From a virus, in IMG/VR virus record IMGVR_UViG_3300037424_001643, positions 1 to 64,000 of that record: a stretch of 64,000 bases of DNA; one strand, 5' to 3'. The notes beneath the pieces are model-generated. The model worked only from the letters and a program-made list of their open reading frames with translations, was not told where the DNA came from and searched no databases. Position 1 is the stretch's first letter. Every line of letters begins with the position of its first letter. Position numbers and translations under genes: made by a program. Below, piece after piece: positions 962 to 32,179 of the stretch.

Positions 962-1438
962 CTACGAAAGTGTGCGCCAACTCTGAATGACGCCCGCGTC
1001 GTCAATGGTCGGGATGGACGAGTAAAACCACGACTCAAAGTCCGAAAGTTCGCGATTGGGCTTCGGCGGTGCGTGAGGAAAAACTCCGGCGCACAGGCAA
1101 TCGGCCCAAAAAACCAGTTCGGCCTTGAAAGGCTCCGGGTGTTCCTTGGCCTCCGCGCGTAGCTTGTCAATCATCGGCTGGACGAGGGTGACGATAAACG
1201 TCCGTGCAATTTGCATGGCGGCACCGTCCTTGGCAGAGATGCGGTCCCAGTGCAGGCGACGAAGCGTCTGAGGGTCGGGAGAACTCGTCGAGGAAGGGGT
1301 CGCCGTAGGGTCAGGGAGGCTGACAGGCGCGTCGGAAGACAGTTTTGGGGTCTCTACGGCTCCGCGGGCCATTTGCTCAAGGCGCTCGGCTTGCAGGCGT
1401 TGGATGCGCTGCATCTTCGTTTCTGGCTTGTCAGTCAT
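962..1438 (-). CDS. hypothetical protein
   Basis: 158-aa ORF preceded by a promoter-like box and a GTGTAAAC motif copy on the same strand. Confidence 0.7.
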   Translation of the reverse strand: MTDKPETKMQRIQRLQAERLEQMARGAVETPKLSSDAPVSLPDPTATPSSTSSPDPQTLRRLHWDRISAKDGAAMQIARTFIVTLVQPMIDKLRAEAKEHPEPFKAELVFWADCLCAGVFPHAPPKPNRELSDFESWFYSSIPTIDDAGVIQSWRTLS

Positions 1439-1471: not shown

Positions 1472-1815
1472 CTGGCCAGTTTGCTGTCGCGTTTACACAG
1501 TCAAGCCCCCGATGTCGATTTTTACACACGTCGGGGGAAGGAGTGAGCGGAGCCCCCGGCCCCCGAAATTCCCCCGTGGGGGTGCCCGGCAAGGTTTGCC
1601 GAGTGCCCTTCATCCATACCGCTAAGGCGACATGGAGTAACAAGTCACACAGGCTCAACGGCTTAGCGACGGATTGTGGTGTCCCTGCGTTGCACCACAA
1701 GGGAAGGCCGAGTAACCTAGTTGAGATTCGCCTTCGTATGTAAGTCATTGATGTGTAGCTAGTTTCGCTCCGTGTGATAGATACTGGAAGCATAGTGACA
1801 AGGACTTACCAACAT

Positions 1816-2864: not shown

Positions 2865-3542
2865 ATGCCGAAACCTAAAAACGAATGGTTGCAGAAGAAG
2901 CCGAGTGATTGGGGCCAGCCCACGAATTACCACGGGTTTGCATCCATCGCGCATAACCAAACCTATGTGGTCACGCTGTCCTGTCTCGGGAAGCAACACC
3001 ACATCAGCTACCACAAGGAGCAGCTTGAAGCCGCACGGGCGTATGACGCAGCGCTGCATTGCCTGTTGCCCTTCACGTCTCCACGTGCAAGGCCGAACTT
3101 CCCGAATGACTTTGAGACGATTAGCTATGAAGACGTCACGACTCTTTGTCCTTACGCCCTCGAACTCTTCAACGAACTTGCGGAGCGTGTGATGGCAATG
3201 GGCCTGTCAATCGAATCGCTTCGCACAGCACGCGAGTCGAACATCAAAATTGCAGTGACCGCTGAAGCCCCTGAAGAAACCCGTCAGGCTCGCGCGTTGC
3301 GCAGCTATGATGCGCTCAAGCATCGCATCAGTGTGGCAATGGCCGAGTCAAGCGAGAGTGCCGACAAAATTTCTGCGAAGCTTGGCGCGGTGGATTTGCG
3401 AAAGCTGCCTGTGGTCAACAAGGCCGTCAACGATGCGACCGTGAGATTGAAGGAAGCTTCGCTCGCTCTGCTCGAAGCTCACAACCTGCTCGCATCACAG
3501 CGCGAGTATTACGAGAAAATCAAACTCACCCCTATCGAATGA
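2865..3542 (+). CDS. AP2-domain DNA-binding protein without a nuclease domain, helical C-terminal half
   Basis: YHGFASIAHNQTYVVTLSCLGKQHHISYHKEQLEAARAYDAALHCLLPFTSPRARPNFP matches the AP2/ERF pattern (YxGV...W.A.I...LG.F...EAA.AYD.AA...NFP). There is no HNH motif. It is the first gene of the rightward operon. Confidence 0.75.
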   Translation: MPKPKNEWLQKKPSDWGQPTNYHGFASIAHNQTYVVTLSCLGKQHHISYHKEQLEAARAYDAALHCLLPFTSPRARPNFPNDFETISYEDVTTLCPYALELFNELAERVMAMGLSIESLRTARESNIKIAVTAEAPEETRQARALRSYDALKHRISVAMAESSESADKISAKLGAVDLRKLPVVNKAVNDATVRLKEASLALLEAHNLLASQREYYEKIKLTPIE

Positions 3543-6668: not shown

Positions 6669-6696
6669 TTGCGTGTAAACGGTGATGTGATACTCT
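6669..6696 (+). promoter_or_regulatory. promoter/operator cassette, TTGCGT-N16-TACTCT with GTGTAAAC core, 6 nt before ATG 6703
   Basis: cccCTTGCGTGTAAACGGTGATGTGATACTCTtgaggtATG. The core GTGTAAAC is at 6673..6680. Confidence 0.4.
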
Positions 6697-6702
6697 TGAG
6701 GT

Positions 6703-6975
6703 ATGAAAATTGACCTGTATAACATTCCTCGCTTCCGCAAGTTCTCCGTCCGCTACGTCGGACCGAGTATGACCCGCCCTTCCCGCATCCGCATCATTGA
6801 CGAGCGGCACAAGTTGGCCAAGGTGGTCGTGTATGACTCCGAAATTGGTGACCTCGCCCAACAAGCGGCTTGCTACCTGAAGAAAGTCGGAATCTCCGTG
6901 GACGGGATGGCGCTGGGCAATCTTGACAGCGAAGTCCACTTGCTGTCACAGGATTTCGCAACGCCTCTCAAGTAA
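6703..6975 (+). CDS. hypothetical protein
   Basis: 90-aa ORF following the cassette. Confidence 0.65.
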   Translation: MKIDLYNIPRFRKFSVRYVGPSMTRPSRIRIIDERHKLAKVVVYDSEIGDLAQQAACYLKKVGISVDGMALGNLDSEVHLLSQDFATPLK

Positions 6976-7022
6976 CAAACTTTCTCAAGTAACAACCTCG
7001 AAAACAAATCGAAAGCCACAAT

Positions 7023-7667
7023 ATGACTCCCAAAATCGAAAACCGTTACGACCGCAACCAACGGCTTCAGAATTCGTTCTCCGTCTTCGTCGGCTCCCTT
7101 GCGCTCGCTCTTGACTGTGATTTCATCGCCACGCAGGATGGCGGTTGTTTCAGCGAAATTGTGCTCCGCGATGGGACCAAGCTTTCCGTGGGTCTAAATG
7201 GCTACGAGGGCAAGGTCGAAGTGGCCGTCGGCAGCAAGCGCGACTCCCGCAATCAGTTGTTTACTCTGCGAGATGTGATGAACTACGAAGAGCGCAACGG
7301 CGCAACGCCGATTACAGTCTGTATCAATGTGGCCGCAGAAGGGCGCACCTTCAAGGCGCTGGCGGCTGACATCACCCGCCGGTTGCTGCCGGATGCCCGT
7401 GTTATCTGGGCGCGTATCTGTGAGGCTGTGAAGCGCAGTGACGATTACGCGAGCGGCTGCGCGTCTGAAGCCGAGAAGTTCGCCGAATTGCTGGACTGTC
7501 CGCCACATCAAAACGATGCCCGCAGGGCGGAGAAGAACTTCTTTCCCGAGCTTCCGGGCGTTCATTGCGTGACAGTCGCGCAAGGCAACGTCGATTTCAA
7601 GTTCAGCGGTTCGCCCGCGACGGCGGCAAAGTTGCTGGCGTTGCTGAAAGAATTGTCGGCAGAGTGA
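7023..7667 (+). CDS. hypothetical protein
   Basis: 214-aa ORF with no motif I recognise. Confidence 0.7.
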   Translation: MTPKIENRYDRNQRLQNSFSVFVGSLALALDCDFIATQDGGCFSEIVLRDGTKLSVGLNGYEGKVEVAVGSKRDSRNQLFTLRDVMNYEERNGATPITVCINVAAEGRTFKALAADITRRLLPDARVIWARICEAVKRSDDYASGCASEAEKFAELLDCPPHQNDARRAEKNFFPELPGVHCVTVAQGNVDFKFSGSPATAAKLLALLKELSAE

Positions 7668-7697
7668 TTGGACAACGGGCAAAAGCTCGGATACCTT
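7668..7697 (+). promoter_or_regulatory. promoter candidate, TTGGAC-N18-TACCTT
   Basis: It shares GATACCTTCT with the 7952 and 10664 boxes. It lies 17 nt upstream of ATG 7715. Confidence 0.3.
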
Positions 7698-7714
7698 CTT
7701 GACGTCAAAGCTAT

Positions 7715-7942
7715 ATGATACCGCACAAATACACCAATAAAGACAAAGGCCGGTCGGTGGTTTACGAGCACCCCCACGGGGACAGCGTGTCGGCCACAAT
7801 TACGCAAGTGAACCCCAATGGAAACGTCGTGCTCCGATTCGCGGTGCCGTTGCGAGGCATACAGAGTGCGACCGTTTTGCCGACGGACACGGCACGAAGG
7901 TTGACACTGTTTCCGGTCAATTCATACTTTCTGGTTTGCTGA
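7715..7942 (+). CDS. hypothetical protein
   Basis: 75-aa ORF. Confidence 0.6.
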   Translation: MIPHKYTNKDKGRSVVYEHPHGDSVSATITQVNPNGNVVLRFAVPLRGIQSATVLPTDTARRLTLFPVNSYFLVC

Positions 7943-7951
7943 AAAAAGAAT

Positions 7952-7979
7952 TTGACGACGTGTAAACGTGTGATACCTT
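7952..7979 (+). promoter_or_regulatory. promoter/operator cassette, TTGACG-N16-TACCTT (TGA extended -10) with CGTGTAAACG core
   Basis: aaTTTGACGACGTGTAAACGTGTGATACCTTCTGG. The core is at 7960..7967. It lies 41 nt upstream of ATG 8021. Confidence 0.45.
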
Positions 7980-8020
7980 CTGGGTGTCGATAACACTGAA
8001 AACACTAAACCGAAAACAAT

Positions 8021-8476
8021 ATGAGCGAAAATCGAATCATCAATGACTTCACTCCCGAAACTCTCAGCCTTATCAATCGCCTCGTGGCGGCGGGCTTCGT
8101 CATTCACAGCGGCAGCAACGGCGAAGAGCGCTTCAACTTCGACGGCGATACGACGAAGTTTCTTGATAACCTGCTGGCCTGTGACGAGGGCTGGCTTTAT
8201 GTCGTCGCGCCGGGCACGCCGTTCACACCGTCTAATAAGGGGACGGGCAATCTGATTCAGCGGCGGCATTCGTTGTATCTAGTGCTTGGCAACTCGCCCG
8301 GCGAACTGGTCTGTGACCATTCGGAGCATCCGCTTCTTGACGAAGTGACGCGCGCGCACTATGCGGAATGGGACGGCAAGCCGCAGCTTACGACCACGGA
8401 AGCGGAGAAGTATGGTGTGCGCCGTCCGCAGCAGTGCATGGGGCATCTTTTCGTTGAAAACCTGAACGACGCCTGA
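8021..8476 (+). CDS. hypothetical protein
   Basis: 151-aa ORF. Confidence 0.7.
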   Translation: MSENRIINDFTPETLSLINRLVAAGFVIHSGSNGEERFNFDGDTTKFLDNLLACDEGWLYVVAPGTPFTPSNKGTGNLIQRRHSLYLVLGNSPGELVCDHSEHPLLDEVTRAHYAEWDGKPQLTTTEAEKYGVRRPQQCMGHLFVENLNDA

Positions 8477-8478
8477 AT

Positions 8479-8550
8479 ATGAACCTAGTATCGCTGATTG
8501 CCTACGTTGTCTTGGTTGAAGTGGTCATCCTCGCCCTCCTCTTTTTATGA
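8479..8550 (+). CDS. 23-aa hydrophobic micro-ORF (tentative)
   Basis: MNLVSLIAYVVLVEVVILALLFL. Its TGA stop overlaps the ATG at 8547 as ATGA, and it fills an otherwise empty 70-nt gap. Confidence 0.3.
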   Translation: MNLVSLIAYVVLVEVVILALLFL

Positions 8551-9002
8551 AACACATCGGACTGATTAACGGGCTCGACGTGCGTTACGTCGAGCATACA
8601 AACCGCTGGATTCTTGAAGACTCCGCGGGCAAAACTTTGTCGGAGGCTGGCAGTTTGAAAGAGCTTCGAGACTGGGAAGAACAGCAACGACGCAAAGAAG
8701 AGAAAGTGCCCTTCGTGCGCCGCTCCGCGATTCATTACAATCAGCACGGGTATGATTTTGGGGGAGTTCCCGTTGCAGTCTCGGTCACGAGTCAGGACAG
8801 CGGCGGGGAGTTTTGGGTTTCATACTCAAAGCCGGGCGAGGCACGGGCACGCCGGTCAAGGGTGCCTGCCAAGTTTCTGTTCGACCACACGCCGGAGAAC
8901 CTTCAAATGGTTGCCGCATCGGCAGAGGACCGGAAGGCCGGGGAAGCATTGATTTTGGCGGCGGCGAACAGGTTGAAATCCTTGCACCCTTTCAAGGTTT
9001 GA
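8547..9002 (+). CDS. hypothetical protein
   Basis: 151-aa ORF. Confidence 0.7.
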   Translation: MKHIGLINGLDVRYVEHTNRWILEDSAGKTLSEAGSLKELRDWEEQQRRKEEKVPFVRRSAIHYNQHGYDFGGVPVAVSVTSQDSGGEFWVSYSKPGEARARRSRVPAKFLFDHTPENLQMVAASAEDRKAGEALILAAANRLKSLHPFKV

Positions 9003-9003
9003 T

Positions 9004-9032
9004 TTGACAGGCGTGTAAACGTGTGAGAGGCT
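9004..9032 (+). promoter_or_regulatory. promoter/operator cassette, TTGACA-N17-GAGGCT with CGTGTAAACG core, 9 nt before ATG 9042
   Basis: gaTTTGACAGGCGTGTAAACGTGTGAGAGGCTagtggtgttATG. The core is at 9013..9020. Confidence 0.4.
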
Positions 9033-9041
9033 AGTGGTGTT

Positions 9042-9734
9042 ATGAAAATCACTCACGACATTAAAACGGCGCTTTGGTGTGGCCCCGCGGCCATCTCCGC
9101 AGTGACCGGAAGACCGACCTCCGAAATCATGGCGCTAGCCCGGCACTTCACCGGCAAGAAGACCGTGAAGGGTTTGAGCGTTCGCGCACTGCGGCAGGTG
9201 TTGAACGCGCTGGGCTATCGCACCGACGAGATTTTTTCGGCGGGGCTCGAATTCTGCGCGGGCAATCCAAACTGGAAACCGACGCTGGCCAAGTGGACCA
9301 AAGAAAATGCCAAGGCATTTTCCAAGCTGCCGTGCGTCGTGCTGGTGTCTAATCATTACGTCACGGTGAAGGGACGCCAGTTGGTTGACACTTTCACGCC
9401 GGGCTTCGAGCCGGTGCCGCTCAAAAAAGCGCCGTGGCGTCGTGCCCGTGTGGCGAAAGTTCTGCGGGTCGAGAAGACAGAAGGACCGGTCTTCGTTCCG
9501 CCACCGCCGTTCAAACCCGTTGTCGAAACCGCTGGACGTGGCGCGGTGCTGCGGCTCGCTCGACAATACAATATCGAAGTGGACGACCAACAAAAGGAGT
9601 TTGACCAGATTTGGATTTATCCACCCCCGGCGCTTACTGACGGAGCGCTGGACCGTTTCGACGGGGACCATTGCGTCTTCGATTGGGCCGACGCAATGCA
9701 ACGGGTGAAAGGCTACATCTCTGACTTGAAGTAA
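9042..9734 (+). CDS. hypothetical protein, possibly a papain-fold (C39-like) cysteine peptidase
   Basis: N-terminal LWCGPAAISAVTG (a Cys in a CGPAA context) and a later VLVSNHYVTVKG (His) resemble the Cys/His arrangement of C39-like peptidases. This rests on pattern only. Confidence 0.35.
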   Translation: MKITHDIKTALWCGPAAISAVTGRPTSEIMALARHFTGKKTVKGLSVRALRQVLNALGYRTDEIFSAGLEFCAGNPNWKPTLAKWTKENAKAFSKLPCVVLVSNHYVTVKGRQLVDTFTPGFEPVPLKKAPWRRARVAKVLRVEKTEGPVFVPPPPFKPVVETAGRGAVLRLARQYNIEVDDQQKEFDQIWIYPPPALTDGALDRFDGDHCVFDWADAMQRVKGYISDLK

Positions 9735-9775
9735 TTTTCGGTGATAGTGCGCAACAACCAAACCAAAGAAAGAAC

Positions 9776-10096
9776 ATGAAAAAACTACTGATAGCGCTGG
9801 CCCTGAGCTTGGCCAGTCTCACAACACAGGCCCGCAACGTAACGCTGGCATGGGACGCGGAACCCGACGCCAAGGTCATCGCCTACACAGTGACCTATTT
9901 CCAAGAGGGCGCTGGCACAAGCCAGACGGTCACGGTCGGGCCGACGGAGCGGCAGGCTAACATCACGGTCACGGCAGGCCAATGGAGTGCCTACGTCGTC
10001 GCAGTGGGCAATACCGGGTTGCCCAGTGACCCGTCGAACGTCGTGGATATATTCATCCCGATTCCCCCCGCAAATCTACGGATTGTCGTAGAGTAA
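9776..10096 (+). CDS. secreted FN3-like (Ig-like beta-sandwich) protein
   Basis: Signal peptide MKKLLIALALSLASLTTQA, followed by the LAWDA...VIAYTVTYF...VTAGQWSAYVVAV pattern typical of fibronectin type III domains. Confidence 0.5.
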   Translation: MKKLLIALALSLASLTTQARNVTLAWDAEPDAKVIAYTVTYFQEGAGTSQTVTVGPTERQANITVTAGQWSAYVVAVGNTGLPSDPSNVVDIFIPIPPANLRIVVE

Positions 10097-10104
10097 AAAA
10101 ACAG

Positions 10105-10137
10105 CACGGGGCACTTGACGGATTCAGGTGCCCCGTG
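10105..10137 (+). terminator. 10-bp GC-rich hairpin after the FN3 gene (weak T tract)
   Basis: CACGGGGCAC (10105..10114) pairs with GTGCCCCGTG (10128..10137). An A-run precedes it and no strong U-run follows. The loop carries TTGACG. Confidence 0.35.
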
Positions 10138-10143
10138 TATCTT
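10115..10143 (+). promoter_or_regulatory. promoter candidate, TTGACG-N17-TATCTT, 6 nt before ATG 10150
   Basis: The -35 element lies in the hairpin loop. The -10 box TATCTTCTGG resembles TACCTTCTG of the other boxes. Confidence 0.35.
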
Positions 10144-10149
10144 CTGGAC

Positions 10150-10677
10150 ATGTCGAACCTCACTGATAACGCCGCCGAAGTCGGAAAGCACAAGTTTGAA
10201 CTGGCGGGGCTCGGGCTCGCGCCGTTCCGATTCGTCAGGGTGTCGGATAACGTGATTACCTATCCAGACGGCACCCAGAAGGCCGGGGGCTCGTGCGACT
10301 ACTGCGGGACCGGCATCCGCACGGAATGCCAGATTGTCAGCGCGGACGGCAAGCGCTCCAAGGTCGGATGCAACTGTATCGAGAAGGTCGGGGACGCGGG
10401 ATTGCTCAAGGCATATAAGACCAGCCCGGAGTTTCGCAAAGCGCTTCGCGAGAAGACGGCCAAGAAGAACGCCGCGGTATTCGAGGAACTCAAGGCACTG
10501 GTGGAGAAGTTGCAGCCGGTGCTCGCCACTCAGCCGCATCCGCGCGGTTTCCGGGATTTCAAAACGGGCGAGCGGTTGACCGCGTTCGACTCAGTGAAAT
10601 GGCTTTTTGAGAACTCAGGAGCATCGGGCCGGGCGAGTCTTTTGAGGGCGCTGAAGAAACAATTTGACGGCGTGTAA
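10150..10677 (+). CDS. hypothetical Cys-cluster (putative zinc-binding) protein
   Basis: MSNLTDNAAEV... with CDYCGTGIRTEC...VGCNC. The track's GTG start at 10135 lies inside the promoter box. Confidence 0.65.
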   Translation: MSNLTDNAAEVGKHKFELAGLGLAPFRFVRVSDNVITYPDGTQKAGGSCDYCGTGIRTECQIVSADGKRSKVGCNCIEKVGDAGLLKAYKTSPEFRKALREKTAKKNAAVFEELKALVEKLQPVLATQPHPRGFRDFKTGERLTAFDSVKWLFENSGASGRASLLRALKKQFDGV

Positions 10678-10692
10678 ACCTTGAACTACCTT
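10664..10692 (+). promoter_or_regulatory. promoter/operator cassette, TTGACG-N17-TACCTT with CGTGTAAAC core, 5 nt before ATG 10698
   Basis: aaTTTGACGGCGTGTAAACCTTGAACTACCTTctgtgATG. The stop TAA of the upstream ORF is the TAA inside GTGTAAAC (10675..10677). Confidence 0.4.
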
Positions 10693-10697
10693 CTGTG

Positions 10698-10919
10698 ATG
10701 TCAAACAAGCCCACACTCGAAGCCCTGAAGTCAGAAGTTGTCCGCGCGGGCTTCACCCTCTCGGCGGGGGCGTGGGAAGACGAACATGCGATTTACGCCG
10801 CTTCGGCTGAAGCAGTTCCCGGTTGCTATGGTCATCCGAAGTTCGAGGCGACATTCTGCAAGCGCACCGGCTGGCTTAGGCTGGGAAAACGACCGGCAAT
10901 TAAATTCACGGAAGCATGA
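10698..10919 (+). CDS. hypothetical protein
   Basis: MSNKPTLEALKSEVVRAGF... The track lists a GTG one codon upstream at 10695. Confidence 0.6.
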   Translation: MSNKPTLEALKSEVVRAGFTLSAGAWEDEHAIYAASAEAVPGCYGHPKFEATFCKRTGWLRLGKRPAIKFTEA

Positions 10920-11647: not shown

Positions 11648-11948
11648 ATGGATAAACCCACCATCCACCAACACACCACTCCCCGCGCGGCGCGACAGGG
11701 CGCAGCCGACGGGGCTTCTTTTTCCGGTTTCAGCAGTCCGGGGGCCGTGATTCAAGCCGCGTGCTACGGCCTTGCCTATGGCATGGGCGCAAAACGCTTC
11801 GCCGAAGGTCAAGATTAACACCAAGGCTGCGCGCAAGCTCATGGCGGCAGCGTGTAAACGATACGGTGTCGTGGGCATTGTCACGGGCCGGTTGACCGAC
11901 TGGCAAAATATCGGCACGTTGACGAAGCGCCAAAAGCGCCGACAATAA
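11648..11948 (+). pseudogene. frameshifted relic resembling the fingers region (motif B) of a bacterial-type family A DNA polymerase
   Basis: Frame 1 (11648..11818): MDKPTIHQHTT...AVIQAACYGLAYGMGAKRFAEGQD*. A second frame continues as KINTKAARKLMAAACKRYGVVGIV... to 11948. Compare Pol I DIHxxTA...RxxAKxxNFGxxYGMSxxxLAxxLxIxxxEAxxxxxxYFxxYPGV. The motif-B lysine is replaced by Q. Confidence 0.4.
11919..11946 (+). promoter_or_regulatory. promoter candidate, TTGACG-N16-GACAAT, 8 nt before ATG 11955
   Basis: Third copy of the TTGACR-N16-GACAAT arrangement. Confidence 0.4.
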
Positions 11949-13986: not shown

Positions 13987-14166
13987 ATGAAAGAACAGAT
14001 TCTTGGATTTCTTCTCTTGGCGGGATTCGGTTTGGCCCTCTTGCTTGTGTTCGTCGGGGGCTCCTACCTGGAGGCCAAGACTTACAACCGACTCACGGGG
14101 GCGAAGGTCTCGACGTGGGATGCCATTTGGGTTGACCTGAGGGTTCAAGAGCAGACCTTGAAATGA
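13987..14166 (+). CDS. small single-pass membrane protein (59 aa)
   Basis: MKEQILGFLLLAGFGLALLLVFVGGSYLEAK... Its stop forms an ATGA overlap with ATG 14163. It is below the track cutoff. Confidence 0.5.
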   Translation: MKEQILGFLLLAGFGLALLLVFVGGSYLEAKTYNRLTGAKVSTWDAIWVDLRVQEQTLK

Positions 14167-14624
14167 CCACCGAGGGACATTACGAAGAATTTGGGATTTA
14201 CGCCCCCAACTCAAAAAAATCTATGAGCGAAAATACCACAAAGAAAACTCGGGCACTTCCCCGAGTATGGAAACAAATCAAGCACCTGCAACACGGCGAC
14301 CTGTTTTACCTCGGAAAGATTCTCGTGGCCAAAACGAGTTTCTTTACCGCCCGCGAGTTTGAATTCGATTCATGCCTCGGGCGTCCGTCGCTGACCGGGG
14401 ACGGCCATTTCGTCTGGCCTTGGCGGCGCGTGAAGACGACTCAGCTTGTGCGCGACGCGAAGCCGGGCGGCAAGAGCAGTCAGGACTTGACTATGAGTCG
14501 CGCCACCGAGAACAGTCTCGAAGCGGCACGTTTACACGAAGCGCGCAAAGACGACTGCGGAGTCATCGAAATAAAGTCGGTGCAGCCGAACAGCGACAAC
14601 AACGTCACCGGCCCCACGAGCTAA
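14163..14624 (+). CDS. hypothetical protein
   Basis: 153-aa ORF. Confidence 0.65.
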   Translation: MTTEGHYEEFGIYAPNSKKSMSENTTKKTRALPRVWKQIKHLQHGDLFYLGKILVAKTSFFTAREFEFDSCLGRPSLTGDGHFVWPWRRVKTTQLVRDAKPGGKSSQDLTMSRATENSLEAARLHEARKDDCGVIEIKSVQPNSDNNVTGPTS

Positions 14625-16921: not shown

Positions 16922-17267
16922 GCGGGGTTCGATATTTACCGCTGTCGCAGGGGAAAGTCGCGGTCATAGACGCGGACGATTTTGACCGGGTCGGTCACTT
17001 TAAGTGGAGTTACAAGGAATCAGGTAAAACGGGATACGCCGTCCGGTGCGTCGGCGGACGGAAAAACCCGAAACGACTTTGGCTTCATCAAGTTATTTTA
17101 GGCATTCCGTATGTGGACCACCGGGACGGCGACGGGCTGAACAATTGCCGGTATAACCTCCGCCCGTCCGATTCCGAGTCCAACGCCCGAGCATTTCGGC
17201 GAAAGCCCGTGACGAGCTTGCCCGGTCTCTCGGTTTCTCCGAAGAGGCGATGAACTTCCCCCGATGA
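16918..17267 (+). pseudogene. decayed HNH-AP2 (copy 3): HNH part intact, AP2 core deleted, AP2 tail in another frame
   Basis: Frame 1 gives MSGVRYLPLSQGKVAVIDADDFDRVGHFKW...VDHRDGDGLNNCRYNLRPSDSESN and stops at 17253. A second frame reads AKARDELARSLGFSEEAMNFPR*, which is the end of an AP2 domain (compare copy 1). That frame stops at 17265..17267, overlapping the helicase ATG. Confidence 0.6.
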
Positions 17268-18811
17268 ATCCCGCAGGACTGTTAGACTATCAGATTCCGG
17301 CGGCGGAAAAATTGGTCTCCGCCATCAACGTCTTTGGAGCCGCTTTGGACGCGAGCGAGATGGGCACCGGCAAGACCTATAACGCCGGGGCGGTCATCCG
17401 CCATTATGACTGTCCGACGTTGGTCATGTGTCCGGAAGTCACAATTCCCGGATGGCAGCGCATGGGCGCGGCGATGGGAATCGAGTTCAGTATCCTGAAC
17501 TATGAAATGCTCCGCACGGGCCGGACGCCTTACGGCTGGTGGGAGAATCCGCCGCCGAAACGACTCCCCACAAAATTCAAATGCACTCAATGTCGAACCG
17601 TCGTGGACCCGGAGAAACCGGTTCCGTGTCACCTTCACCACTTGGGCATTCACTGTGTAGAGACCGAAACTATTCCGCACGACTATGGCAAATTCACTTG
17701 GGCTCCCGAAATCAAACTGCTGGTCGTCGATGAAGCGCACCGTTGCAGCGCGGTTGATTCTCTCCACGCTGATATGCTCATTGCGGCTGGACGACAGAAG
17801 ATTAAAACTCTCCTGCTCTCCGCCACTGTTGCAGAGTCCCCGATACAGCTTCGCGCCATCGGATTTTTACTTCGATTACACAACCTCATTGACTCTCGAA
17901 TACCGGGCAGTCCTGTCGGGTTCTACAAGTGGGCAATGGGCCTCGGTTGTCGCAAGCTACCGTTTCAGGGATTCCATTTTGCTGTTGGAGAAGAACGGCG
18001 AAAGGAGATACTTTCTCGACTGCATTCCGACATCTTTACTCGGCGCGGATGCCGAGTCCGCATTGAAGACTTGGGAGATGCGTTCCCAGATTGTCAGGTC
18101 ACTGCGGAACTCTACCACGCCGAAAAAGCTGGACGGGCAGAAGAACTCTTCCGAACAATGGAAGAGGCAATCCGCACCCTCAATGACATTCGTGAGGGAG
18201 ACCCGGAACATCCCCTCACGGTGCTGTTGCGTGCAAGCCAAGAAGTCGAGTTGCTGAAGGTGCCCATCTTCGTTGAACTGACAACTGATGCGTTAGCAGA
18301 AGGCAAGCATGTCGCCCTTTTCGTCAACTACCGGCAGACGGTTGAGGAACTGTGTAAACGGTTGAAGACCCAGTGCCGCATAGACGGCTCCCAGACGGGC
18401 GTTAGGGGGGCCAAGGTGCGAGCGGCGAACGTGGAGGACTTCCTGCATGACCGGGAGCCTGTAATCGTCGCCAGCGCGGCGGCGGGGGGTCTCGGCATCG
18501 GACTGCACGACATTCTCGGGAGGTTTGGACGGCTGGGGCTGGTATCGCCCGGCTTCTCCGCGAAACAGTTTCGGCAGATTCTCGGGAGACTCCGACGGCA
18601 GGGCGGCAAGTCCACGGCGCTATATCGGGCAATCTTCATGGCGGGAACACCGGACGAAAAGCGGCACAAAGCGCTTGCAGCGAAGCTGGACTGTATCGAC
18701 ACACTGAACGACGGAGATTTATTTCCGAATCTGGTCTTGACAAAATTCCGCGAGCGGGTTATTGACTTAGAGACTGACATGCCGACAACACTGAAAACAT
18801 TCAAAATATGA
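17264..18811 (+). CDS. SNF2/DEAH-type superfamily 2 helicase
   Basis: Motif I is SEMGTGKTY, motif II LLVVDEAHRC, motif III LLLSAT, and motif VI QILGRLRRQG. A Cys/His insert is present (KCTQCRTV...CHLHHLGIHC). Confidence 0.8.
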   Translation: MNPAGLLDYQIPAAEKLVSAINVFGAALDASEMGTGKTYNAGAVIRHYDCPTLVMCPEVTIPGWQRMGAAMGIEFSILNYEMLRTGRTPYGWWENPPPKRLPTKFKCTQCRTVVDPEKPVPCHLHHLGIHCVETETIPHDYGKFTWAPEIKLLVVDEAHRCSAVDSLHADMLIAAGRQKIKTLLLSATVAESPIQLRAIGFLLRLHNLIDSRIPGSPVGFYKWAMGLGCRKLPFQGFHFAVGEERRKEILSRLHSDIFTRRGCRVRIEDLGDAFPDCQVTAELYHAEKAGRAEELFRTMEEAIRTLNDIREGDPEHPLTVLLRASQEVELLKVPIFVELTTDALAEGKHVALFVNYRQTVEELCKRLKTQCRIDGSQTGVRGAKVRAANVEDFLHDREPVIVASAAAGGLGIGLHDILGRFGRLGLVSPGFSAKQFRQILGRLRRQGGKSTALYRAIFMAGTPDEKRHKALAAKLDCIDTLNDGDLFPNLVLTKFRERVIDLETDMPTTLKTFKI

Positions 18812-22773: not shown

Positions 22774-22801
22774 TTGACAGTCTGAATTTCCGTGTTAGAT
22801 T
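22774..22801 (+). promoter_or_regulatory. sigma70-like promoter, TTGACA-N16-TAGATT with TGT extended -10, 5 nt before ATG 22807
   Basis: It lies immediately after the terminator. This is the best consensus match in the window. Confidence 0.5.
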
Positions 22802-22806
22802 TGGGT

Positions 22807-23448
22807 ATGAATAGAGAATCTTGGCTCAATGCCGCCGTCGATGAATTTCGCCCGTTTTTTCTCGGACAGAACTTGAAAGTCCCGGACCTCTACGTCTCGT
22901 GCGGCTTCCCGTCTCGCAACGCCACCGGCACCAAGAAGCGCGCCATTGGCGAGTGCTGGGATGGTCTGCAATCCGCCGACAAGAAGCCCCAGCTTTTCAT
23001 TTCGCCGTTCCTCGTTGCGCCGTTGGAGCCGCAAGGCGTGCTGGCGACGCTCGCGCACGAGATTGTCCACGCGACCATCGGTTGCGAGGCGAAACATGGG
23101 CCGAAGTTCGTGGCCGCGATGAAAAAAGTCGGGCTGGAAGGCAAACCGACGGCCACCATCGCGGGTGAATTGCTTGTCGAGAAACTCCGTCGCATTCACG
23201 AGAAGCTCGGCGACTATCCGCACAGCGAGTTGAAGCTTGTGCGAGAACGCAAGGTCCAGACCACGCGCATGAAAAAAGCCGTGTGCTCGTGCGACGGCTG
23301 CGAATACACCGTGCGGCTTTCTCAGAAGTGGATTGACGAAGTCGGCCTGCCGATTTGCCCCGGCGGGACGGCGGACACGGCACACGGACCGATGAAAGTT
23401 CCTCTTCCGGTCGGTGAAGCGCCGGACGATGGCGAGGGGGAAGAATGA
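22807..23448 (+). CDS. SprT-like zinc metalloprotease-domain protein with C-terminal zinc ribbon
   Basis: LAHEIVHATIG carries the HExxH motif, and CSCDGCEY...PICPGG forms the ribbon. Confidence 0.5.
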   Translation: MNRESWLNAAVDEFRPFFLGQNLKVPDLYVSCGFPSRNATGTKKRAIGECWDGLQSADKKPQLFISPFLVAPLEPQGVLATLAHEIVHATIGCEAKHGPKFVAAMKKVGLEGKPTATIAGELLVEKLRRIHEKLGDYPHSELKLVRERKVQTTRMKKAVCSCDGCEYTVRLSQKWIDEVGLPICPGGTADTAHGPMKVPLPVGEAPDDGEGEE

Positions 23449-23633: not shown

Positions 23634-24127
23634 TACGCTCTCAGGCGCAGAAGATTGTAATTCGGGGCCGCAAGGCGGAGATTTCCCTAACCCGGGGGAA
23701 GGTCGCGCTGATAGATACTGCGGACCTCGCACGGGTTCAGAAATTCAAATGGTTTGCCCGGAAAGACGCGTCCGGGAAGTGGAGGGTTTGCACGATAGTC
23801 GAACTATCTCGATTCGTTCTTCAACTCCCGCCGGGGAGAGGGTTGGCGGACCACAAGAATCTCAACCCGCTCGACAATCGTCGGCGTAACCTTCGCCGGG
23901 CGTCGCCGTCCCAGAATCTCGCCAACGTTGCGAAGCGGGAGGGTAAATTTTCTTCTCGATTCAAAGGCGTGTGCTGGTCGTCGGAAAAGAAGCGTTGGCG
24001 AGCCTACGTGAAACGGGGAACTTACCGCCATCTGGGATATTTTAAGTCGGAATGGGCGGCGGCAAAAGCCTATAATGCGGCTGCAAAAACCTTATTCGGG
24101 GAATTCTATTATGCCAATCGCCGTTGA
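23630..24127 (+). CDS. HNH-AP2 homing endonuclease (copy 5, intact)
   Basis: HNH core ADHKNLNPLDNRRRNLRRASPSQN and AP2 domain SRFKGVCWSSEKKRWRAYVKRGTYRHLGYFKSEWAAAKAYNAAAKTLFGEF. It overlaps the DNA polymerase start by 17 nt. Confidence 0.8.
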   Translation: MIRSQAQKIVIRGRKAEISLTRGKVALIDTADLARVQKFKWFARKDASGKWRVCTIVELSRFVLQLPPGRGLADHKNLNPLDNRRRNLRRASPSQNLANVAKREGKFSSRFKGVCWSSEKKRWRAYVKRGTYRHLGYFKSEWAAAKAYNAAAKTLFGEFYYANRR

Positions 24128-26150
24128 TTTTGAGACCTACTACAATGAAGCCGAAGGGCTCGGCATCAAGCAACAAGGCACTTGGAAGTATTGCCACGAC
24201 CCTCGCTTCGATGCATATCTGATTTCGGTTTGTGATGGCAAGAACTCTTGGGCCGGGCAACCGAAGAACCTTAATTGGGACGCGTTAGAGGGAGAACTTA
24301 TCCTGTCGCACAACCGCTATTTCGACTCGTCCGTCTATGAAGTCATGGTTGAGCGCGGGGTATTCCCGAAAATCAATTTCGCGGGCTGGGAATGCACCGC
24401 TAACCTGACGACCTACCTTTGTATGCGCCGCGACCTCGGTCGGGCGTGCGAATTCCTGCTCGGAGTGCAACTCGACAAGAGCGTCCGTGGCGAGGCCGAC
24501 GGCAAGGGCTGGGATGACTTGGTGAAAGAAGATGGTGGCGCGTCCATGCTCGAATACGCGCGCAAGGACGCCTATTACTGTTGGTTGTTATGGCACAAGT
24601 TTGGGCATCTGTGGCCCGAACGGGAGCGGAAGCTGTCGAACATCTCCATTGACCAAGGGCAGCGCGGCGCGCAAATTGACGAAGACAAACTTAATCGGTT
24701 CATGGCGGTTGCACAGGAGATGCTGATTGCGATGGAACTTCGGTTGCCGTGGATGAAGCAGGGTAAAAAGCCCACGAGCCCGAAGGCCATCGCCGAAGAG
24801 TGCCGTAAGCACAATATCCCACCGCCCCCCATCAAGAACCCGAAGAAAAAACCGACGGCGGACTACAACGGCGAAGAGGCGTATGAGGAGTGGTCCGCGC
24901 TTTTCGCGCCTCGCTTTGAGTGGGTCAAGGCTTATGCAGATTACCGTGTCGTGGAGAAACTATTGGGCACCCTTGAGACCATCAAGGAACGTTTACACCC
25001 CGATGGCGTGTTCTCGTATGACATGCTTTACTTCGGGGCACATACCGGTCGCTGGGCGGGCGCGGGCGGTTTCAACATGCAAAACCAAAGAAAATTGCCC
25101 TACTACCGCGCAATAGACGGCACCCTGATTACCTGCCCGAAGCTTCTGGCGAACATTGAAGACAGTCTGCGAGTCGATAAGCGATTGCCCGACTTCGTTT
25201 CTGATGTCCTCGACATCCGTTCCCTGTTCATCGCGCGCCCCGGTAAAAAATTGCTGATTGGCGACTTGAGCCAGATTGAACCGCGCGTGCTGGCGTGGCT
25301 GGTGGACGACCACGCGATGCTCACGATGATGGGGGCCGGAAAATCACCTTATCAGGCTCACGCGGAAGCGACGATGAACTGGACGCGCGGGGACATGAAG
25401 AGTTTAATCAAGGCGGGGGACGGCGAAGCCAAAAACCTTTACGCGCTCGCCAAAGCGCGCGTGCTCGGTCTAGGCTTCGGTTGCGGATGGAAAAAGTTTA
25501 TCACCGTCGCGCAGGTGATGGCGGGTTTGGACATCACCGTTGACGACCCGGAGATGGTGCCAGTTTTGAACGAGTTCGGAGACCAGTGCATAGGCAAGGA
25601 CGGAAAGCCGCTCTTTGAGTCCGGATACGGATTCAACAGCAAGCGAATCGTGAAAGAATACCGCGAACAAAATCCCCTGATTACGGGCCTGTGGGAAACC
25701 TTGGACAACGCCCTCCGCGAGTCGGTCGGCAGTGATTTTTCGATGACCCTCCCGAGCGGGCGGGTGATGCGTTACCCGGAAGTGCGACGCGGGCGCAAGC
25801 CAATCGTGGACCCAGAGAACCCCAAGAAAATTACGCACAAGTGGGAGACTTCGGCACTTGCCTTCGACCAGAAATACAATCGGGTCGTGCGTAAGGGTTT
25901 CTACGGGGGAATCCTTTGTGAAAATTTGGTGCAGGCCACGGCGCGCGACGTGTTCGGAGAAATCGTTATCGACCTCGCAGAGACCTCAGGGATGGACGTT
26001 CTTTTCACGGCTCACGACGAAGCGGTGGTGGAAGCAGACTCTTCGGCGACAAAGAGAGATGTCGAAGAGATAATGAGTCGCACGCCGGAATGGATTCCGG
26101 GGCTCCCGGTGTCGGCGGAGGTCGTAGAATCTCAATGTTATTTGAAATGA
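24111..26150 (+). CDS. family A DNA polymerase with 3'-5' exonuclease domain
   Basis: Exo motifs are VDFET, SHNRYFD and YARKDAYY. Pol motif A is IGDLSQIEPRVLAWL, motif B KARVLGLGFGCGWKKF, and motif C FTAHDEAVVE. Confidence 0.85.
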   Translation: MPIAVDFETYYNEAEGLGIKQQGTWKYCHDPRFDAYLISVCDGKNSWAGQPKNLNWDALEGELILSHNRYFDSSVYEVMVERGVFPKINFAGWECTANLTTYLCMRRDLGRACEFLLGVQLDKSVRGEADGKGWDDLVKEDGGASMLEYARKDAYYCWLLWHKFGHLWPERERKLSNISIDQGQRGAQIDEDKLNRFMAVAQEMLIAMELRLPWMKQGKKPTSPKAIAEECRKHNIPPPPIKNPKKKPTADYNGEEAYEEWSALFAPRFEWVKAYADYRVVEKLLGTLETIKERLHPDGVFSYDMLYFGAHTGRWAGAGGFNMQNQRKLPYYRAIDGTLITCPKLLANIEDSLRVDKRLPDFVSDVLDIRSLFIARPGKKLLIGDLSQIEPRVLAWLVDDHAMLTMMGAGKSPYQAHAEATMNWTRGDMKSLIKAGDGEAKNLYALAKARVLGLGFGCGWKKFITVAQVMAGLDITVDDPEMVPVLNEFGDQCIGKDGKPLFESGYGFNSKRIVKEYREQNPLITGLWETLDNALRESVGSDFSMTLPSGRVMRYPEVRRGRKPIVDPENPKKITHKWETSALAFDQKYNRVVRKGFYGGILCENLVQATARDVFGEIVIDLAETSGMDVLFTAHDEAVVEADSSATKRDVEEIMSRTPEWIPGLPVSAEVVESQCYLK

Positions 26151-32159: not shown

Positions 32160-32179
32160 GTCGTTTAGCGTGTAAACGC

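What the first reader, a model, noticed from the sequence alone, without database searches (positions are those of the whole stretch)
6669..10692. Reiterated cassette TTTGAC-N2-4-CGTGTAAAC(G)-...-TAnnnT in front of consecutive early genes
Four plus-strand copies of the core GTGTAAAC lie 18-54 nt upstream of ORF starts.
- The cores are at 6673, 7960, 9013 and 10672.
- The matching ORF starts are 6703, 8021, 9042 and 10698.

Three copies share an almost identical context, aTTTGAC[AG]..CGTGTAAACGTGTGA. All four carry a -10-like box (TACTCT, TACCTT or GAGGCT) 16-17 nt after the TTGAC-like box.

A fifth copy in the same orientation relative to its gene sits on the minus strand at 1486..1504, upstream of 962..1438.

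At 10675..10677 the stop codon of the upstream gene is the TAA inside the motif.

The conserved spacer sequence is unusual for a plain promoter. It suggests one of two things:
- An operator embedded in the promoter.
- A -35 element of TGTAAAC type, like those used by ECF sigma factors. The phage sigma gene at 28812..29495 could supply such a factor.
Basis: partly seen in the sequence, partly recalled or inferred. Interest (0 to 1): 0.7.

Follow-up and report, generated by a model that had tools for sequence, protein, structure and literature searches.

The report
Phage promoter box tied to SprT-like protein
The repeated box in four early promoters of this uncultured phage is one use of an exact 8-base word (GTGTAAAC / GTTTAAAC) that is scattered through the whole genome. 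Across hundreds of unrelated phages this word is strongly enriched only where a particular "SprT-like" zinc protein is encoded, which suggests an undescribed protein-plus-DNA-word system.

Summary
The four cassettes are real and sit at the stated coordinates. They are sigma-70/SigA-type promoters (TTGACR or TTGCGT, N16-17, TGn-TAnnnT) whose -10 box lies 5-9 nt before the ATG, so most transcripts would be leaderless.

The conserved "spacer" is not a promoter element.
- GTGTAAAC occurs 15 times in the window against 0.8 expected.
- Ten copies lie outside promoters, in three reading frames and both orientations.
- No internal one-mismatch variants exist.
- Relatives carry it, or the palindrome GTTTAAAC, at varying offsets from the -35 box.

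The motif tracks one gene, window 22807..23448 (PHROG 6361, "SprT-like": HExxH plus a C-terminal zinc ribbon).
- 80 IMG/VR loci fetched by that protein alone: GTTTAAAC 433 observed vs 29.5 expected, GTGTAAAC 115 vs 23.3.
- 78 loci fetched by DNA polymerase that lack the protein show no excess, including syntenic relatives that keep the phage sigma.
- Cultured examples: Arthrobacter phage Crewmate has 21 copies vs 0.17 expected, four of them abutting -10 boxes, one in front of its own SprT-like gene. E. coli phage HeidiAbel has 6 vs 0.5.

Best reading: the SprT-like protein binds GTKTAAAC, and at promoters the site acts as an operator. Binding is inferred, not shown. The ECF -35 idea is rejected.

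The parts
6669..6705 (+). Early promoter cassette 1 (class B). TTGCGT 6669-6674 overlaps the motif GTGTAAAC 6673-6680. The -10 box is TACTCT 6691-6696 and the ATG is at 6703, so the mRNA would be leaderless. It drives the 90-aa gene 6703..6975.
   Evidence: The orthologous cassette CTTGCGTTTAAACG is present in L012, L011 and L041 (A7).
7952..8023 (+). Early promoter cassette 2 (class A). TTGACG 7952-7957, motif 7960-7967, TGa-TACCTT 7974-7979, then a leader of about 35-40 nt that is C/A-rich and has no Shine-Dalgarno sequence, ATG 8021.
   Evidence: The orthologous promoter in L017 (at 3842) has the same -35 box, -10 box and leader but no motif.
9004..9044 (+). Early promoter cassette 3 (class A). 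TTGACA 9004-9009, motif 9013-9020, TGa-GAGGCT 9027-9032, ATG 9042. A terminator-like hairpin at 8980-8997 precedes it.
10664..10700 (+). Early promoter cassette 4 (class A). TTGACG 10664-10669, motif 10672-10679 (its TAA is the stop codon of gene 10135..10677), TACCTT 10687-10692, ATG 10698 (leaderless).
1491..1504 (-). TTGAC-N1-GTGTAAAC with no matching -10 box. It lies 20 nt upstream of the separate promoter (TTGACA 1471-1466, N16, GACAGT) of gene 962..1438.
11852..11859 (+). Solitary motif copy inside gene 11778..11948, sense strand, read as C-K-R.
14530..14537 (-). Solitary motif copy inside gene 14163..14624, antisense, read as R-L-H.
18352..18359 (+). Solitary motif copy inside helicase-like gene 17264..18811. 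A copy sits at the orthologous position in L009 (366).
24991..24998 (-). Solitary motif copy inside DNA polymerase gene 24111..26150, antisense.
26737..26744 (-). Solitary motif copy inside primase/helicase-like gene 26584..28815, antisense. A copy sits at the orthologous position in L009 (7933, - strand).
29890..29897 (+). Solitary motif copy inside the RuvC-like gene 29492..30037, sense strand.
32170..32177 (+). Solitary motif copy directly after the terminator hairpin of the rightward operon, in the convergent gap. At the same place L009 has GTTTAAAC in the terminator loop (13734).
46586..46593 (+). Solitary motif copy antisense in late gene 45304..47271.
48710..48717 (+). Solitary motif copy antisense in late gene 48580..49671.
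62232..62239 (+). Solitary motif copy antisense in gene 61956..62495.
22774..23448 (+). Gene for the 213-aa SprT-like / PHROG 6361 protein (22807..23448), with HEIVH at residues 84-88 and a C-terminal zinc ribbon. Its own motif-free leaderless promoter is TTGACA 22774-22779, N16, TAGATT. This protein is the inferred binder of GTKTAAAC.
   Evidence: Association with the motif.

Best explanation
The four cassettes are promoters read by the host's primary sigma factor (TTGACR or TTGCGT, 16-17 nt, TGn-TAnnnT). They start transcription at or within a few bases of the ATG. Each fronts a different small early gene.

The conserved sequence inside them is a copy of an exact 8-bp word, GTGTAAAC, with preferred flanks C and G. 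This is the G variant of the palindrome GTTTAAAC. The phage carries it 15 times.

The word is the DNA half of a two-part system. The protein half is the SprT-like zinc protein encoded at 22807..23448 (PHROG 6361), made from its own motif-free promoter in the replication block.

Inferred mechanism: as this protein accumulates it binds every GTKTAAAC site. Where a site overlaps the -35/spacer junction it keeps RNA polymerase off. That would shut down the four transcription units at 6.7-11 kb as one regulon.

The dispersed copies probably serve the system's primary role, which is still unknown. My guess is that they address a DNA-activated metalloprotease, or in HExxH-less lineages a plain DNA binder, to the phage's own DNA.

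Shown: promoter anatomy, motif statistics, conservation and variation in relatives, and the protein-motif association. Inferred: direct binding, repression, and the role of the protease.
For: Promoter anatomy and statistics.

The motif is an independent exact word.
- 15 copies vs 0.83 expected.
- All 15 matches allowing one mismatch keep the 8-mer core intact.
- Nothing beyond the 10-mer is conserved around the sites.
- Intragenic copies use three reading frames and both orientations.

The position within promoters varies.
- The offset from TTGAC ranges from -1 to +4 nt in the window, L009, L011, L012, L023 and L041.
- In Arthrobacter phage Crewmate it sits immediately after the -10 box, in four cassettes CTTGCG-N17-18-TAnnCT|GTTTACAC. 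One of these drives the SprT-like gene itself.
- In E. coli phage HeidiAbel a copy lies 8 nt after a TATAAT and 20 nt before its SprT-like gene.

Association with the protein.
- Among 240 loci fetched by a 14-mer, the only window protein shared with the motif-dense loci is 22807..23448.
- 80 loci fetched by that protein alone: GTTTAAAC 433 vs 29.5, GTGTAAAC 115 vs 23.3. 66 of 80 have at least 3 copies, and it is the top pooled 8-mer.
- Control of 80 loci fetched by DNA polymerase: the 78 without the protein have 20 vs 23.4 and 16 vs 26.6, and none has 3 or more copies. The 2 with the protein have 5 and 4 copies vs 0.4 and 0.7.
- Loci with the sigma but without the protein have 0 and 1 sites (L373, L376).
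- A site lies within 300 nt upstream of the protein's gene in 25 of 80 loci vs 12 expected.

Other support.
- The family's HExxH is lost in several motif-dense contigs while the zinc ribbon is kept, so DNA binding is the conserved feature.
Against: - No binding data exist. The link between protein and motif is a correlation.
- 14 of the 80 protein-bearing loci have fewer than 3 copies. Bordetella phage CN1, with a 37% identical homologue, has one G-type and no T-type copy.
- About 45 motif-rich loci from the 14-mer scan show no homologue within the 5-14 kb fetched. The gene may lie elsewhere on those contigs.
- In the window no copy lies near the protein's own gene.
- Across the family, sites are only mildly enriched near gene starts: 14% vs 7.5% within 30 nt. 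Transcription control may be secondary.
- An all-asymmetric G-type site set is odd for a symmetric dimer.
- Both structure predictions were unusable, with pLDDT 37-38.
Confidence: 0.55

Rival explanations
1. The motif is the site of a different, unidentified factor, either a phage protein that travels with the SprT-like gene or a host protein. The SprT-like protein would then be only a co-inherited marker.
For: - The evidence for the SprT-like protein is purely correlative.
- In Crewmate the SprT-like gene is flanked by a DNA methylase, an HTH protein and a sigma-like DNA-binding protein.
- Some motif-rich loci show no homologue in the DNA fetched.
Against: - In tblastn of all window proteins against the 240 loci fetched by the 14-mer (L051-L290), 22807..23448 is the only one found in the motif-dense contigs.
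- Pfam screening of 52 of the window's proteins (the early and middle genes) found no methylase.
- HeidiAbel has no sigma-like or methylase gene annotated, yet is enriched 12-fold.
- The hosts span E. coli, Arthrobacter and metagenomes of 36-71% GC, which argues against one host factor.
Confidence: 0.2
2. The cassettes are mobile promoter modules, analogous to T4 PeSLs. Their shared sequence serves as a recombination point for shuffling small early genes, with no protein bound to the spacer.
For: - Every motif-bearing promoter in the window, L009, L011, L012, L023 and L041 fronts a different, unrelated small ORF.
- Two cassettes follow terminator hairpins (8980-8997 in the window; L009 4560-4590).
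- PeSL precedent: PMC2839356, PMC4122927.
Against: - It does not explain the ten non-promoter copies, their conservation at orthologous sites in L009, or the exactness of only 8-10 bp.
- It does not explain the association with one protein family across unrelated phages.
- Only 8-15 bp are shared between cassettes, which is short for homologous recombination.
Confidence: 0.1
3. The AP2-domain protein 2865..3542, product of the first rightward gene, binds the motif as a monomeric operator protein.
For: - It has an AP2-like domain (Y-G-F ... EAARAYD ... PNFP) followed by a helical tail (A8).
- Its predicted secondary structure is three strands plus a helix.
- AP2 domains read short asymmetric words (general knowledge).
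Against: - The family is present in motif-free L017 and L031/L047.
- It was not detected in motif-rich L039 and L041.
- It is absent from all motif-dense contigs.
- The basic and aromatic residues of the AP2 sheet are not conserved.
- There is no Pfam hit.
Confidence: 0.06
4. GTGTAAAC is a -35 (or -10) element read by RNA polymerase carrying the phage sigma factor 28812..29495.
For: - The AAC ending resembles ECF -35 boxes.
- A sigma gene is present.
- AZ-cluster phages also pair a sigma-like protein with the SprT-like gene.
Against: - There is no partner element at a fixed distance from the motif.
- The motif lies 5-12 nt from the TAnnnT box. A start site derived from a motif-based -35 would fall inside the coding sequence.
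- The sigma is group-3-like, not ECF.
- Relatives with the sigma but without the SprT-like gene have no motif.
- 67 protein-bearing loci have no such sigma nearby yet carry 0.54 sites per kb.
Confidence: 0.03

Closest known systems
Operator/stoperator system of Cluster A mycobacteriophages (L5 gp71, TipsytheTRex repressor; PMC9283540)
   Same: One phage protein with more than 20 short sites spread over the genome. Some sites overlap early promoters and others lie far from promoters. The word varies between lineages.
   Different: - Stoperators are 13-bp asymmetric sites in short intergenic gaps, oriented with transcription, and are bound by an HTH-plus-stoperator-domain immunity repressor.
- Here the word is 8-10 bp and palindromic or nearly so, and lies mostly inside genes.
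- It shows no orientation rule (9 sense, 6 antisense).
- The associated protein is a zincin plus zinc ribbon.
Dispersed operator regulons of phage P1 C1 and plasmid RK2 KorA/KorB (from my own knowledge, not checked here)
   Same: A single regulator with many identical sites scattered over a replicon. Some overlap -35 or -10 boxes and others lie distant from or inside genes.
   Different: The protein folds are different (C1; HTH KorA; ParB-type KorB). The sites are longer (12-17 bp). There are 10-20 sites per replicon, rather than up to 2 per kb as in some contigs here.
T4-type PeSLs, promoter-early stem-loop cassettes (PMC2839356, PMC4122927)
   Same: A reiterated, nearly identical early-promoter module in front of consecutive small, variable, unrelated ORFs.
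   Different: PeSLs are terminator-plus-promoter composites of T4-like phages and are thought to act through recombination. Here only some cassettes have a hairpin, and the shared core also occurs outside promoters.
SprT / Spartan / Wss1 DNA-dependent metalloproteases (Pfam PF10263)
   Same: An HExxH zincin core followed by a small C-terminal zinc-binding DNA-binding module. The phage homologues are annotated 'SprT-like protease'.
   Different: - Known members bind DNA without sequence preference and remove DNA-protein crosslinks.
- No cognate DNA word has been described for them.
- Several phage members have lost HExxH.
Start-associated sequences of Cluster K mycobacteriophages (from my own knowledge, not checked here)
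   Same: A short conserved word placed immediately upstream of many start codons. This matches Crewmate gp7, gp22 and gp33 and contigs L053 and L080.
   Different: That word is a different 13-bp sequence, found only next to start codons, with no linked protein family known.

Membership tests
Sigma-70/SigA-type promoter | -35 hexamer close to TTGACA | tested here: met
   TTGCGT, TTGACG, TTGACA and TTGACG at 6669, 7952, 9004 and 10664.
Sigma-70/SigA-type promoter | A -10 hexamer of the form TAnnnT, 16-18 nt after the -35 box | tested here: met
   Spacers are 16, 16, 17 and 17 nt. The boxes are TACTCT, TACCTT, GAGGCT (weak, with TGn) and TACCTT. The pattern occurs 9 times vs 1.2 in shuffles.
Sigma-70/SigA-type promoter | Transcription starts 6-8 nt after the -10 box | not testable with these tools
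   This needs 5' RACE or dRNA-seq. The ATG lies 5-9 nt after the -10 box in three of the four cassettes.
ECF (group 4) sigma promoter | A -35 box ending in AAC, then 16-17 nt, then a conserved CGT-type -10 box | tested here: not met
   No column beyond the 10-mer is conserved in the 15 sites. The sequences 16 nt downstream differ at every site.
ECF (group 4) sigma factor (protein 28812..29495) | Closest to ECF models, with regions 2 and 4 only | tested here: not met
   The best NCBIfam and PDB matches are RpoH, RpoS, RpoD and SigA over residues 13-118, which include region 1.2. The only ECF-named hit is the generic sigma-70 superfamily model TIGR02937.
Cluster A stoperator system | Site orientation follows the direction of transcription | tested here: not met
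   9 sense and 6 antisense. In Crewmate, where nearly all genes are on one strand, 7 copies are on the + strand and 14 on the - strand.
Cluster A stoperator system | Non-promoter sites lie in short intergenic gaps | tested here: not met
   Nine of the ten non-promoter copies lie inside coding sequence.
Cluster A stoperator system | An HTH-plus-stoperator-domain immunity repressor is encoded | tested here: inconclusive
   No HTH family was found among 52 proteins scanned with Pfam. No structural search was possible.
PeSL cassette | An early promoter fused to an upstream stem-loop terminator | tested here: inconclusive
   A hairpin precedes cassette 3 (8980-8997) and L009 4601. There is no convincing hairpin before cassettes 1, 2 and 4.
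PeSL cassette | Flanks variable, unrelated small ORFs | tested here: met
   Among the 15 ORFs downstream of cassettes, only one orthologous pair is related.
SprT-like family (PF10263) / PHROG 6361 (protein 22807..23448) | Profile match | tested here: met
   PHROG 6361 matches full length with E = 1.6e-40. Pfam SprT-like gives E = 6e-5, 23.3 bits, just under the 25.6-bit cut-off. 7 of 16 family members match Pfam, best E = 1.4e-9.
SprT-like family (PF10263) / PHROG 6361 (protein 22807..23448) | HExxH metal site | tested here: met
   HEIVH at residues 84-88. It is lost in L053, L066, L076, L098, L139 and L261.
SprT-like family (PF10263) / PHROG 6361 (protein 22807..23448) | DNA-dependent protease activity | not testable with these tools
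   This needs a biochemical assay.
AP2 domain (protein 2865..3542) | Match to the AP2 profile or fold | tested here: inconclusive
   There is no Pfam hit. A local profile built from the window's own AP2 domains gives E = 1e-4 over residues 42-76. The alignment shows EAARAYD...PNFP. The model has pLDDT 37.7.

The most novel reading that the evidence does not exclude
PHROG 6361 proteins are sequence-addressed SprT-type factors. Their zinc-ribbon module reads GTKTAAAC, a word the phage has sown through its own genome at 0.2-2 copies per kb. That tethers a DNA-activated metalloprotease, or in HExxH-less lineages a plain binder, to phage DNA. There it would strip or block DNA-bound proteins such as RNA polymerase at selected promoters, host nucleoid proteins or defence proteins. 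This would be a self-marking DNA word paired with a protease, a kind of system not described so far.
Probability: 0.3. Interest if true: 0.85.

Novelty: new variant of a known kind. Interest (0 to 1): 0.72.

Why it matters
**A function for a large orphan family.** "SprT-like protease" genes are annotated in hundreds of cultured phages of Arthrobacter, Microbacterium, Streptomyces, Pseudomonas, Bordetella and E. coli, with no known role. The family has over 2,100 clusters at 50% identity. If these proteins recognise a specific 8-bp word, the family gains a testable function. A conspicuous oligonucleotide bias in many phage genomes also gains an explanation.

**An unusual mechanism.** It would be the first sequence-specific member of the Spartan/SprT kind. 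It would also give a new way for a phage to tell its own DNA from the host's, or to switch off early genes.

**Testability.** Two cultured systems carry both parts: E. coli phage HeidiAbel_Bas97 and Arthrobacter phage Crewmate.

**For this phage.** The motif defines a co-regulated block of four early transcription units. It also shows that most of the phage's mRNAs are probably leaderless.

Tried and rejected
- **Close relatives by DNA.** Megablast of 6-12 kb against cultured phages found nothing.
- **Sigma-based locus search in IMG/VR.** No relative was found.
- **The 16-base pattern TTTGACNNCGTGTAAACG in IMG/VR.** It gave 7 single hits, consistent with chance.
- **Genome collection scan with the 230-aa early protein.** Nothing was found, so the host remains unknown. 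The leaderless TTGAC/TAnnnT promoters are only a hint of an actinobacterium-like host.
- **Fetching the 7.6 kb of the phage outside the window.** The look-up failed.
- **Small proteins 6703..6975 and 7715..7942 as binder candidates.** Their presence first seemed to track the motif. With more genomes the pattern broke: the 75-aa family is in motif-free L042, and both are absent from L039 and L041.
- **HNH-AP2 homing endonucleases as users of the motif.** There are four plus one decayed copy. None was found in any relative's locus, including L009, which keeps the motif. Their distances to the nearest sites are ordinary.
- **Peptide-driven repeats.** Rejected because three reading frames are used.
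- **Homologue search for 2865..3542.** It returned only the query itself.
- **Structure predictions.** Single-sequence models of 2865..3542 and 22807..23448 had pLDDT 37.7 and 36.8. No fold search was run on them.
- **Profile of the SprT-like family against PDB sequences.** No hit.
- **Literature searches.** Searches for the motif, for SprT-like phage proteins with motifs, and for the sample accessions found nothing relevant.
- **The cluster AZ preprint.** It describes the protein but not the motif.

Full report
**Setting**

The window is 64 kb of an uncultured phage of about 71.6 kb, 56.8% G+C. It appears as a JGI contig and as Logan SRR12684511. There is no nucleotide-level relative among cultured phages.

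- Genes run rightward from 2.8 to 32 kb. These are small early genes followed by a replication block: helicase-like, PD-(D/E)XK/DUF2800, SprT-like, DNA polymerase A, DUF5906 primase/helicase-like, a sigma factor, RuvC-like and a phosphoesterase.
- Genes run leftward from 64 to 32.2 kb (structural genes, including a 2,422-aa protein) and from 2.6 to 0 kb.

**The observation**

The four cassettes read as follows.

| -35 box | Motif | -10 box | ATG |
|---|---|---|---|
| TTGCGT 6669 | 6673 | TACTCT 6691 | 6703 |
| TTGACG 7952 | 7960 | TGa-TACCTT 7974 | 8021 |
| TTGACA 9004 | 9013 | TGa-GAGGCT 9027 | 9042 |
| TTGACG 10664 | 10672 | TACCTT 10687 | 10698 |

- In three of the four, the ATG follows the -10 box by 5-9 nt, so the transcripts should be leaderless. 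The same layout recurs at many other genes of the window and of its relatives.
- TTGACR-N16-18-TAnnnT occurs 9 times against 1.2 in dinucleotide shuffles. With an ATG 4-9 nt later it occurs 5 times against 0.05.
- A second -10 type (GACAAT/GACAGT) serves genes 2865, 4012, 11955 and 962 (- strand).

- GTGTAAAC occurs 15 times in the window against 0.83 expected. With its preferred flanks it is the most over-represented 9- and 10-mer of the sequence.
- Ten copies are not in promoter cassettes. Nine lie inside genes and one lies behind the terminator at 32170.
- The intragenic copies are read as C-K-R, R-L-H or V-Y-T, three each. Three are sense and six antisense, so no peptide explains them.
- Nothing outside CGTGTAAACG is conserved around the sites.
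- All 15 matches that allow one mismatch keep the 8-mer core intact.
- Twelve of the 15 copies lie in the first 32 kb.
Its gene has a separate promoter.

**Relatives**

Relatives were found through the sigma factor and the 230-aa early protein 9042..9734. They share the leaderless promoter layout.

- Some carry the same word: L009 has 4 copies in 20.7 kb. One sits in a promoter (TTGACGgcGTGTAAAC-N7-TAGTTT-N5-ATG) and two sit at positions orthologous to window 18352 and 26744. L023 and L039 also carry it.
- Others carry the perfect palindrome GTTTAAAC in the same places: L011, L012/L014 and L040/L041.
- Others carry neither: L017, L031/L047, L042, L043 and L044.
- The orthologous promoter of the 90-aa gene is CTTGCGTgTAAACG in the window and CTTGCGTtTAAACG in L012, with diverged flanks (A7).
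- The promoter of the 151-aa gene is conserved in L017 but without the word.
- The offset between TTGAC and the word ranges from -1 to +4 nt. Its distance to the -10 box is 5-7 or 10-12 nt.

A word that moves relative to both hexamers, also occurs alone, and can be swapped out is not a polymerase recognition element. It behaves as the site of a separate factor that overlaps the promoter.

**The sigma hypothesis**

- The protein at 28812..29495 has regions 2 and 4. Its best matches are RpoH, RpoS, RpoD and SigA across regions 1.2-2, not ECF sigmas.
- No element accompanies the word at -10 distance.
- Relatives that keep this sigma but lack the SprT-like gene have no enrichment (see below).
- This reading is rejected.

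**Searching for the binder**

- The AP2-type protein 2865..3542 does carry an AP2-like domain and a helical tail. Its family, however, occurs in motif-free relatives and was not detected in motif-rich loci.
- The four HNH-AP2 homing endonucleases and one decayed copy were found only in the window, not in any relative's locus.
- Two small early proteins that at first tracked the motif failed with more genomes.
- The genes downstream of motif-bearing promoters are unrelated to one another.

**The turning point**

Scanning IMG/VR for CTTGCGTTTAAACG and CTTGCGTGTAAACG returned mostly chance hits. About 70 of the 240 loci, however, held three or more copies of GTKTAAAC, and about 20 held 10-25 copies in 10-14 kb. 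These are otherwise unrelated phages of 42-53% G+C.

Comparing every window protein with these loci showed a single shared protein: 22807..23448. It has these properties.

- It is 213 aa, with HEIVH and a C-terminal cysteine-rich ribbon (KKQTTRMxKxxCxxCxYxVRxTxKW...GxPxCP).
- It matches PHROG 6361 over its full length and Pfam SprT-like just under the cut-off.
- Of the proteins compared between the window and L009, it is the most conserved, at 79% identity.

**Unbiased test and control**

| Set | GTTTAAAC obs vs exp | GTGTAAAC obs vs exp | Loci with 3 or more copies |
|---|---|---|---|
| 80 loci fetched by similarity to this protein (349 relatives found; 1.15 Mb, 36-71% G+C) | 433 vs 29.5 | 115 vs 23.3 | 66 of 80 |
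| 78 loci fetched by DNA polymerase, lacking the protein | 20 vs 23.4 | 16 vs 26.6 | 0 |
| 2 loci fetched by DNA polymerase, carrying the protein | 5 vs 0.4 | 4 vs 0.7 | 2 of 2 |

- GTTTAAAC is the top pooled 8-mer in the protein-fetched set.
- Within the control, L373 and L376 are relatives that keep the phage sigma but not this protein. They have 0 and 1 copies.
- Conversely, 67 protein-bearing loci without such a sigma carry 0.54 sites per kb.
- Genomes with only the G variant are the G+C-rich ones, at or above 57%, like the window.

**Cultured phages**

Homologues are annotated "SprT-like protease" in 164 deposited phage genomes: Arthrobacter 70, Microbacterium 45, Streptomyces 11, Bordetella 9, Pseudomonas 8 and Escherichia 5.

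- **Arthrobacter phage Crewmate** (68.8% G+C) has 21 copies of GTGTAAAC against 0.17 expected.
  - Four lie in reiterated promoters CTTGCG-N17-18-TAnnCT|GTTTACAC, directly after the -10 box.
  - These promoters front gp53 (the SprT-like gene itself), gp54, gp64 and gp65.
  - Three copies lie between the Shine-Dalgarno sequence and the start codon.
- **E. coli phage HeidiAbel_Bas97** has 6 copies of GTTTAAAC against 0.5 expected. One lies 8 nt after a TATAAT and 20 nt before its homologue.
- **Bordetella phage CN1** shows no enrichment.
- In the IMG/VR set a copy lies within 300 nt upstream of the gene in 25 of 80 loci against 12 expected.
- Overall the sites are only mildly concentrated near gene starts.
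- The family is large: 2,136 clusters at 50% identity with E at or below 1e-10.
- A 2025 preprint on cluster AZ phages predicts a C-terminal DNA-binding module in this protein. It notes that the protein pairs with a sigma-like protein, but it does not mention any motif.
- I found no paper linking the word and the protein.

**Interpretation**

Shown:
- The cassettes have the anatomy of primary-sigma promoters for leaderless mRNAs.
- Their conserved spacer is one instance of a genome-wide exact word.
- The word's enrichment is tied, across unrelated phages and against a matched control, to one protein family.
- In different phages the word overlaps different parts of core promoters, including the promoter of the protein's own gene.

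Inferred:
- The SprT-like protein binds GTKTAAAC, probably through the conserved zinc ribbon. The HExxH is dispensable in several motif-dense lineages.
- Sites that overlap promoters act as operators. In this phage, a product of the replication block would then switch off four early transcription units.
- The dispersed copies reflect a primary function that is still unknown. The most interesting possibility is that they address a DNA-activated protease to the phage's own DNA.

Weak points:
- There are no binding data.
- There are exceptions in both directions.
- An all-asymmetric G-type site set is hard to square with a symmetric dimer.
- No usable structural model was obtained.

**Comparison with known systems**

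- It works most like the dispersed operator sets of mycobacteriophage L5 (stoperators; PMC9283540), phage P1 C1 and plasmid RK2 KorA/KorB.
- It fails the defining stoperator tests of orientation, intergenic placement and repressor type.
- The reiterated cassettes in front of variable ORFs resemble T4 PeSLs (PMC2839356, PMC4122927). That model does not account for the non-promoter copies or the protein link.
- The protein belongs to the SprT/Spartan kind by sequence, but sequence-specific DNA recognition has not been described for that kind.
- I therefore class the finding as a new variant of a known kind, a phage regulator with dispersed sites. There is a realistic chance that it is something more unusual.

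Noticed in passing
window 5274-5347 (+): A tRNA-Thr (anticodon TGT) lies among the early genes. It is the only RNA gene found by ARAGORN and Rfam.
   Followed up: yes
window 12977-13474, 15206-16291, 19898-20452, 23630-24127, 31852-32114 (+): Four HNH-AP2 homing-endonuclease-like genes are scattered in the replication block. There is also a decayed, frameshifted remnant with the N-terminal piece and the AP2 domain but no HNH. None was found in any relative's locus.
   Followed up: partly
window 49343-49469, 50418-50472, 41500-41509 (-): GCGCAACCGG occurs 13 times, mostly at 9-nt spacing, inside genes 48580..49671, 49673..50746 and 40256..41596. These look like collagen-like Gly-X-Y triplet repeats in tail-fibre-type proteins.
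   Followed up: partly
window, upstream of minus-strand genes ending at 2611, 40214, 43798, 48544 and 61665: Late and leftward genes are preceded by TTGAC(G/C)-N17-(T/A)CyyTT boxes that lack the TA of a normal -10 box. This may be the promoter class read with the phage sigma 28812..29495.
   Followed up: no
window 9042-9734 (+): The 230-aa early protein family has invariant Cys13, His105 and Asp116 (LWCGP ... NHYVTV ... D), suggesting a papain-like peptidase. Distant homologues occur in Brevundimonas jumbo phages and Roseobacter phages.
   Followed up: partly
window 7980-8020 (+); L017 3800-3841 and 800-855: The few early genes that do have leaders share C/A-rich, unstructured-looking 5' UTRs of about 40 nt with no Shine-Dalgarno sequence. 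These are conserved between relatives.
   Followed up: no
L041 321, 6557, 11145, 18918; L047 3373-3415; L043 6654, 7401, 8078, 9331: Relatives carry other reiterated promoter-embedded elements. L041 has the 20-bp palindrome TTGACACCAATTGGTGTCAA four times. L047 has two tandem copies of ATGCGTGATTTTCACGCAT. L043 has four near-identical 50-bp promoter cassettes.
   Followed up: no
L053, L080, L098 (IMG/VR contigs); L453 6676, 17731, 24039: In several SprT-like-bearing phages the motif sits exactly between the Shine-Dalgarno sequence and the ATG, or just before the Shine-Dalgarno sequence, at many genes (for example GGAGtgGTTTAAACATG). Density reaches up to 2 per kb, which hints at a role beyond promoters.
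   Followed up: partly
window 1438-1857: A 418-nt gap with no ORF call lies between leftward genes. It contains a hairpin (CCCCCGA ... TCGGGGG, 1535-1504) whose loop holds a near-copy of the motif (GTGTAAAA). There is no Rfam match.
   Followed up: no
pooled loci L291-L370: The DnaA-box word TTATCCACA (as TATCCACA / GTGGATAA) is about 7-fold over-represented in the pooled SprT-like-bearing loci. These may be phage origins near the replication genes.
   Followed up: no
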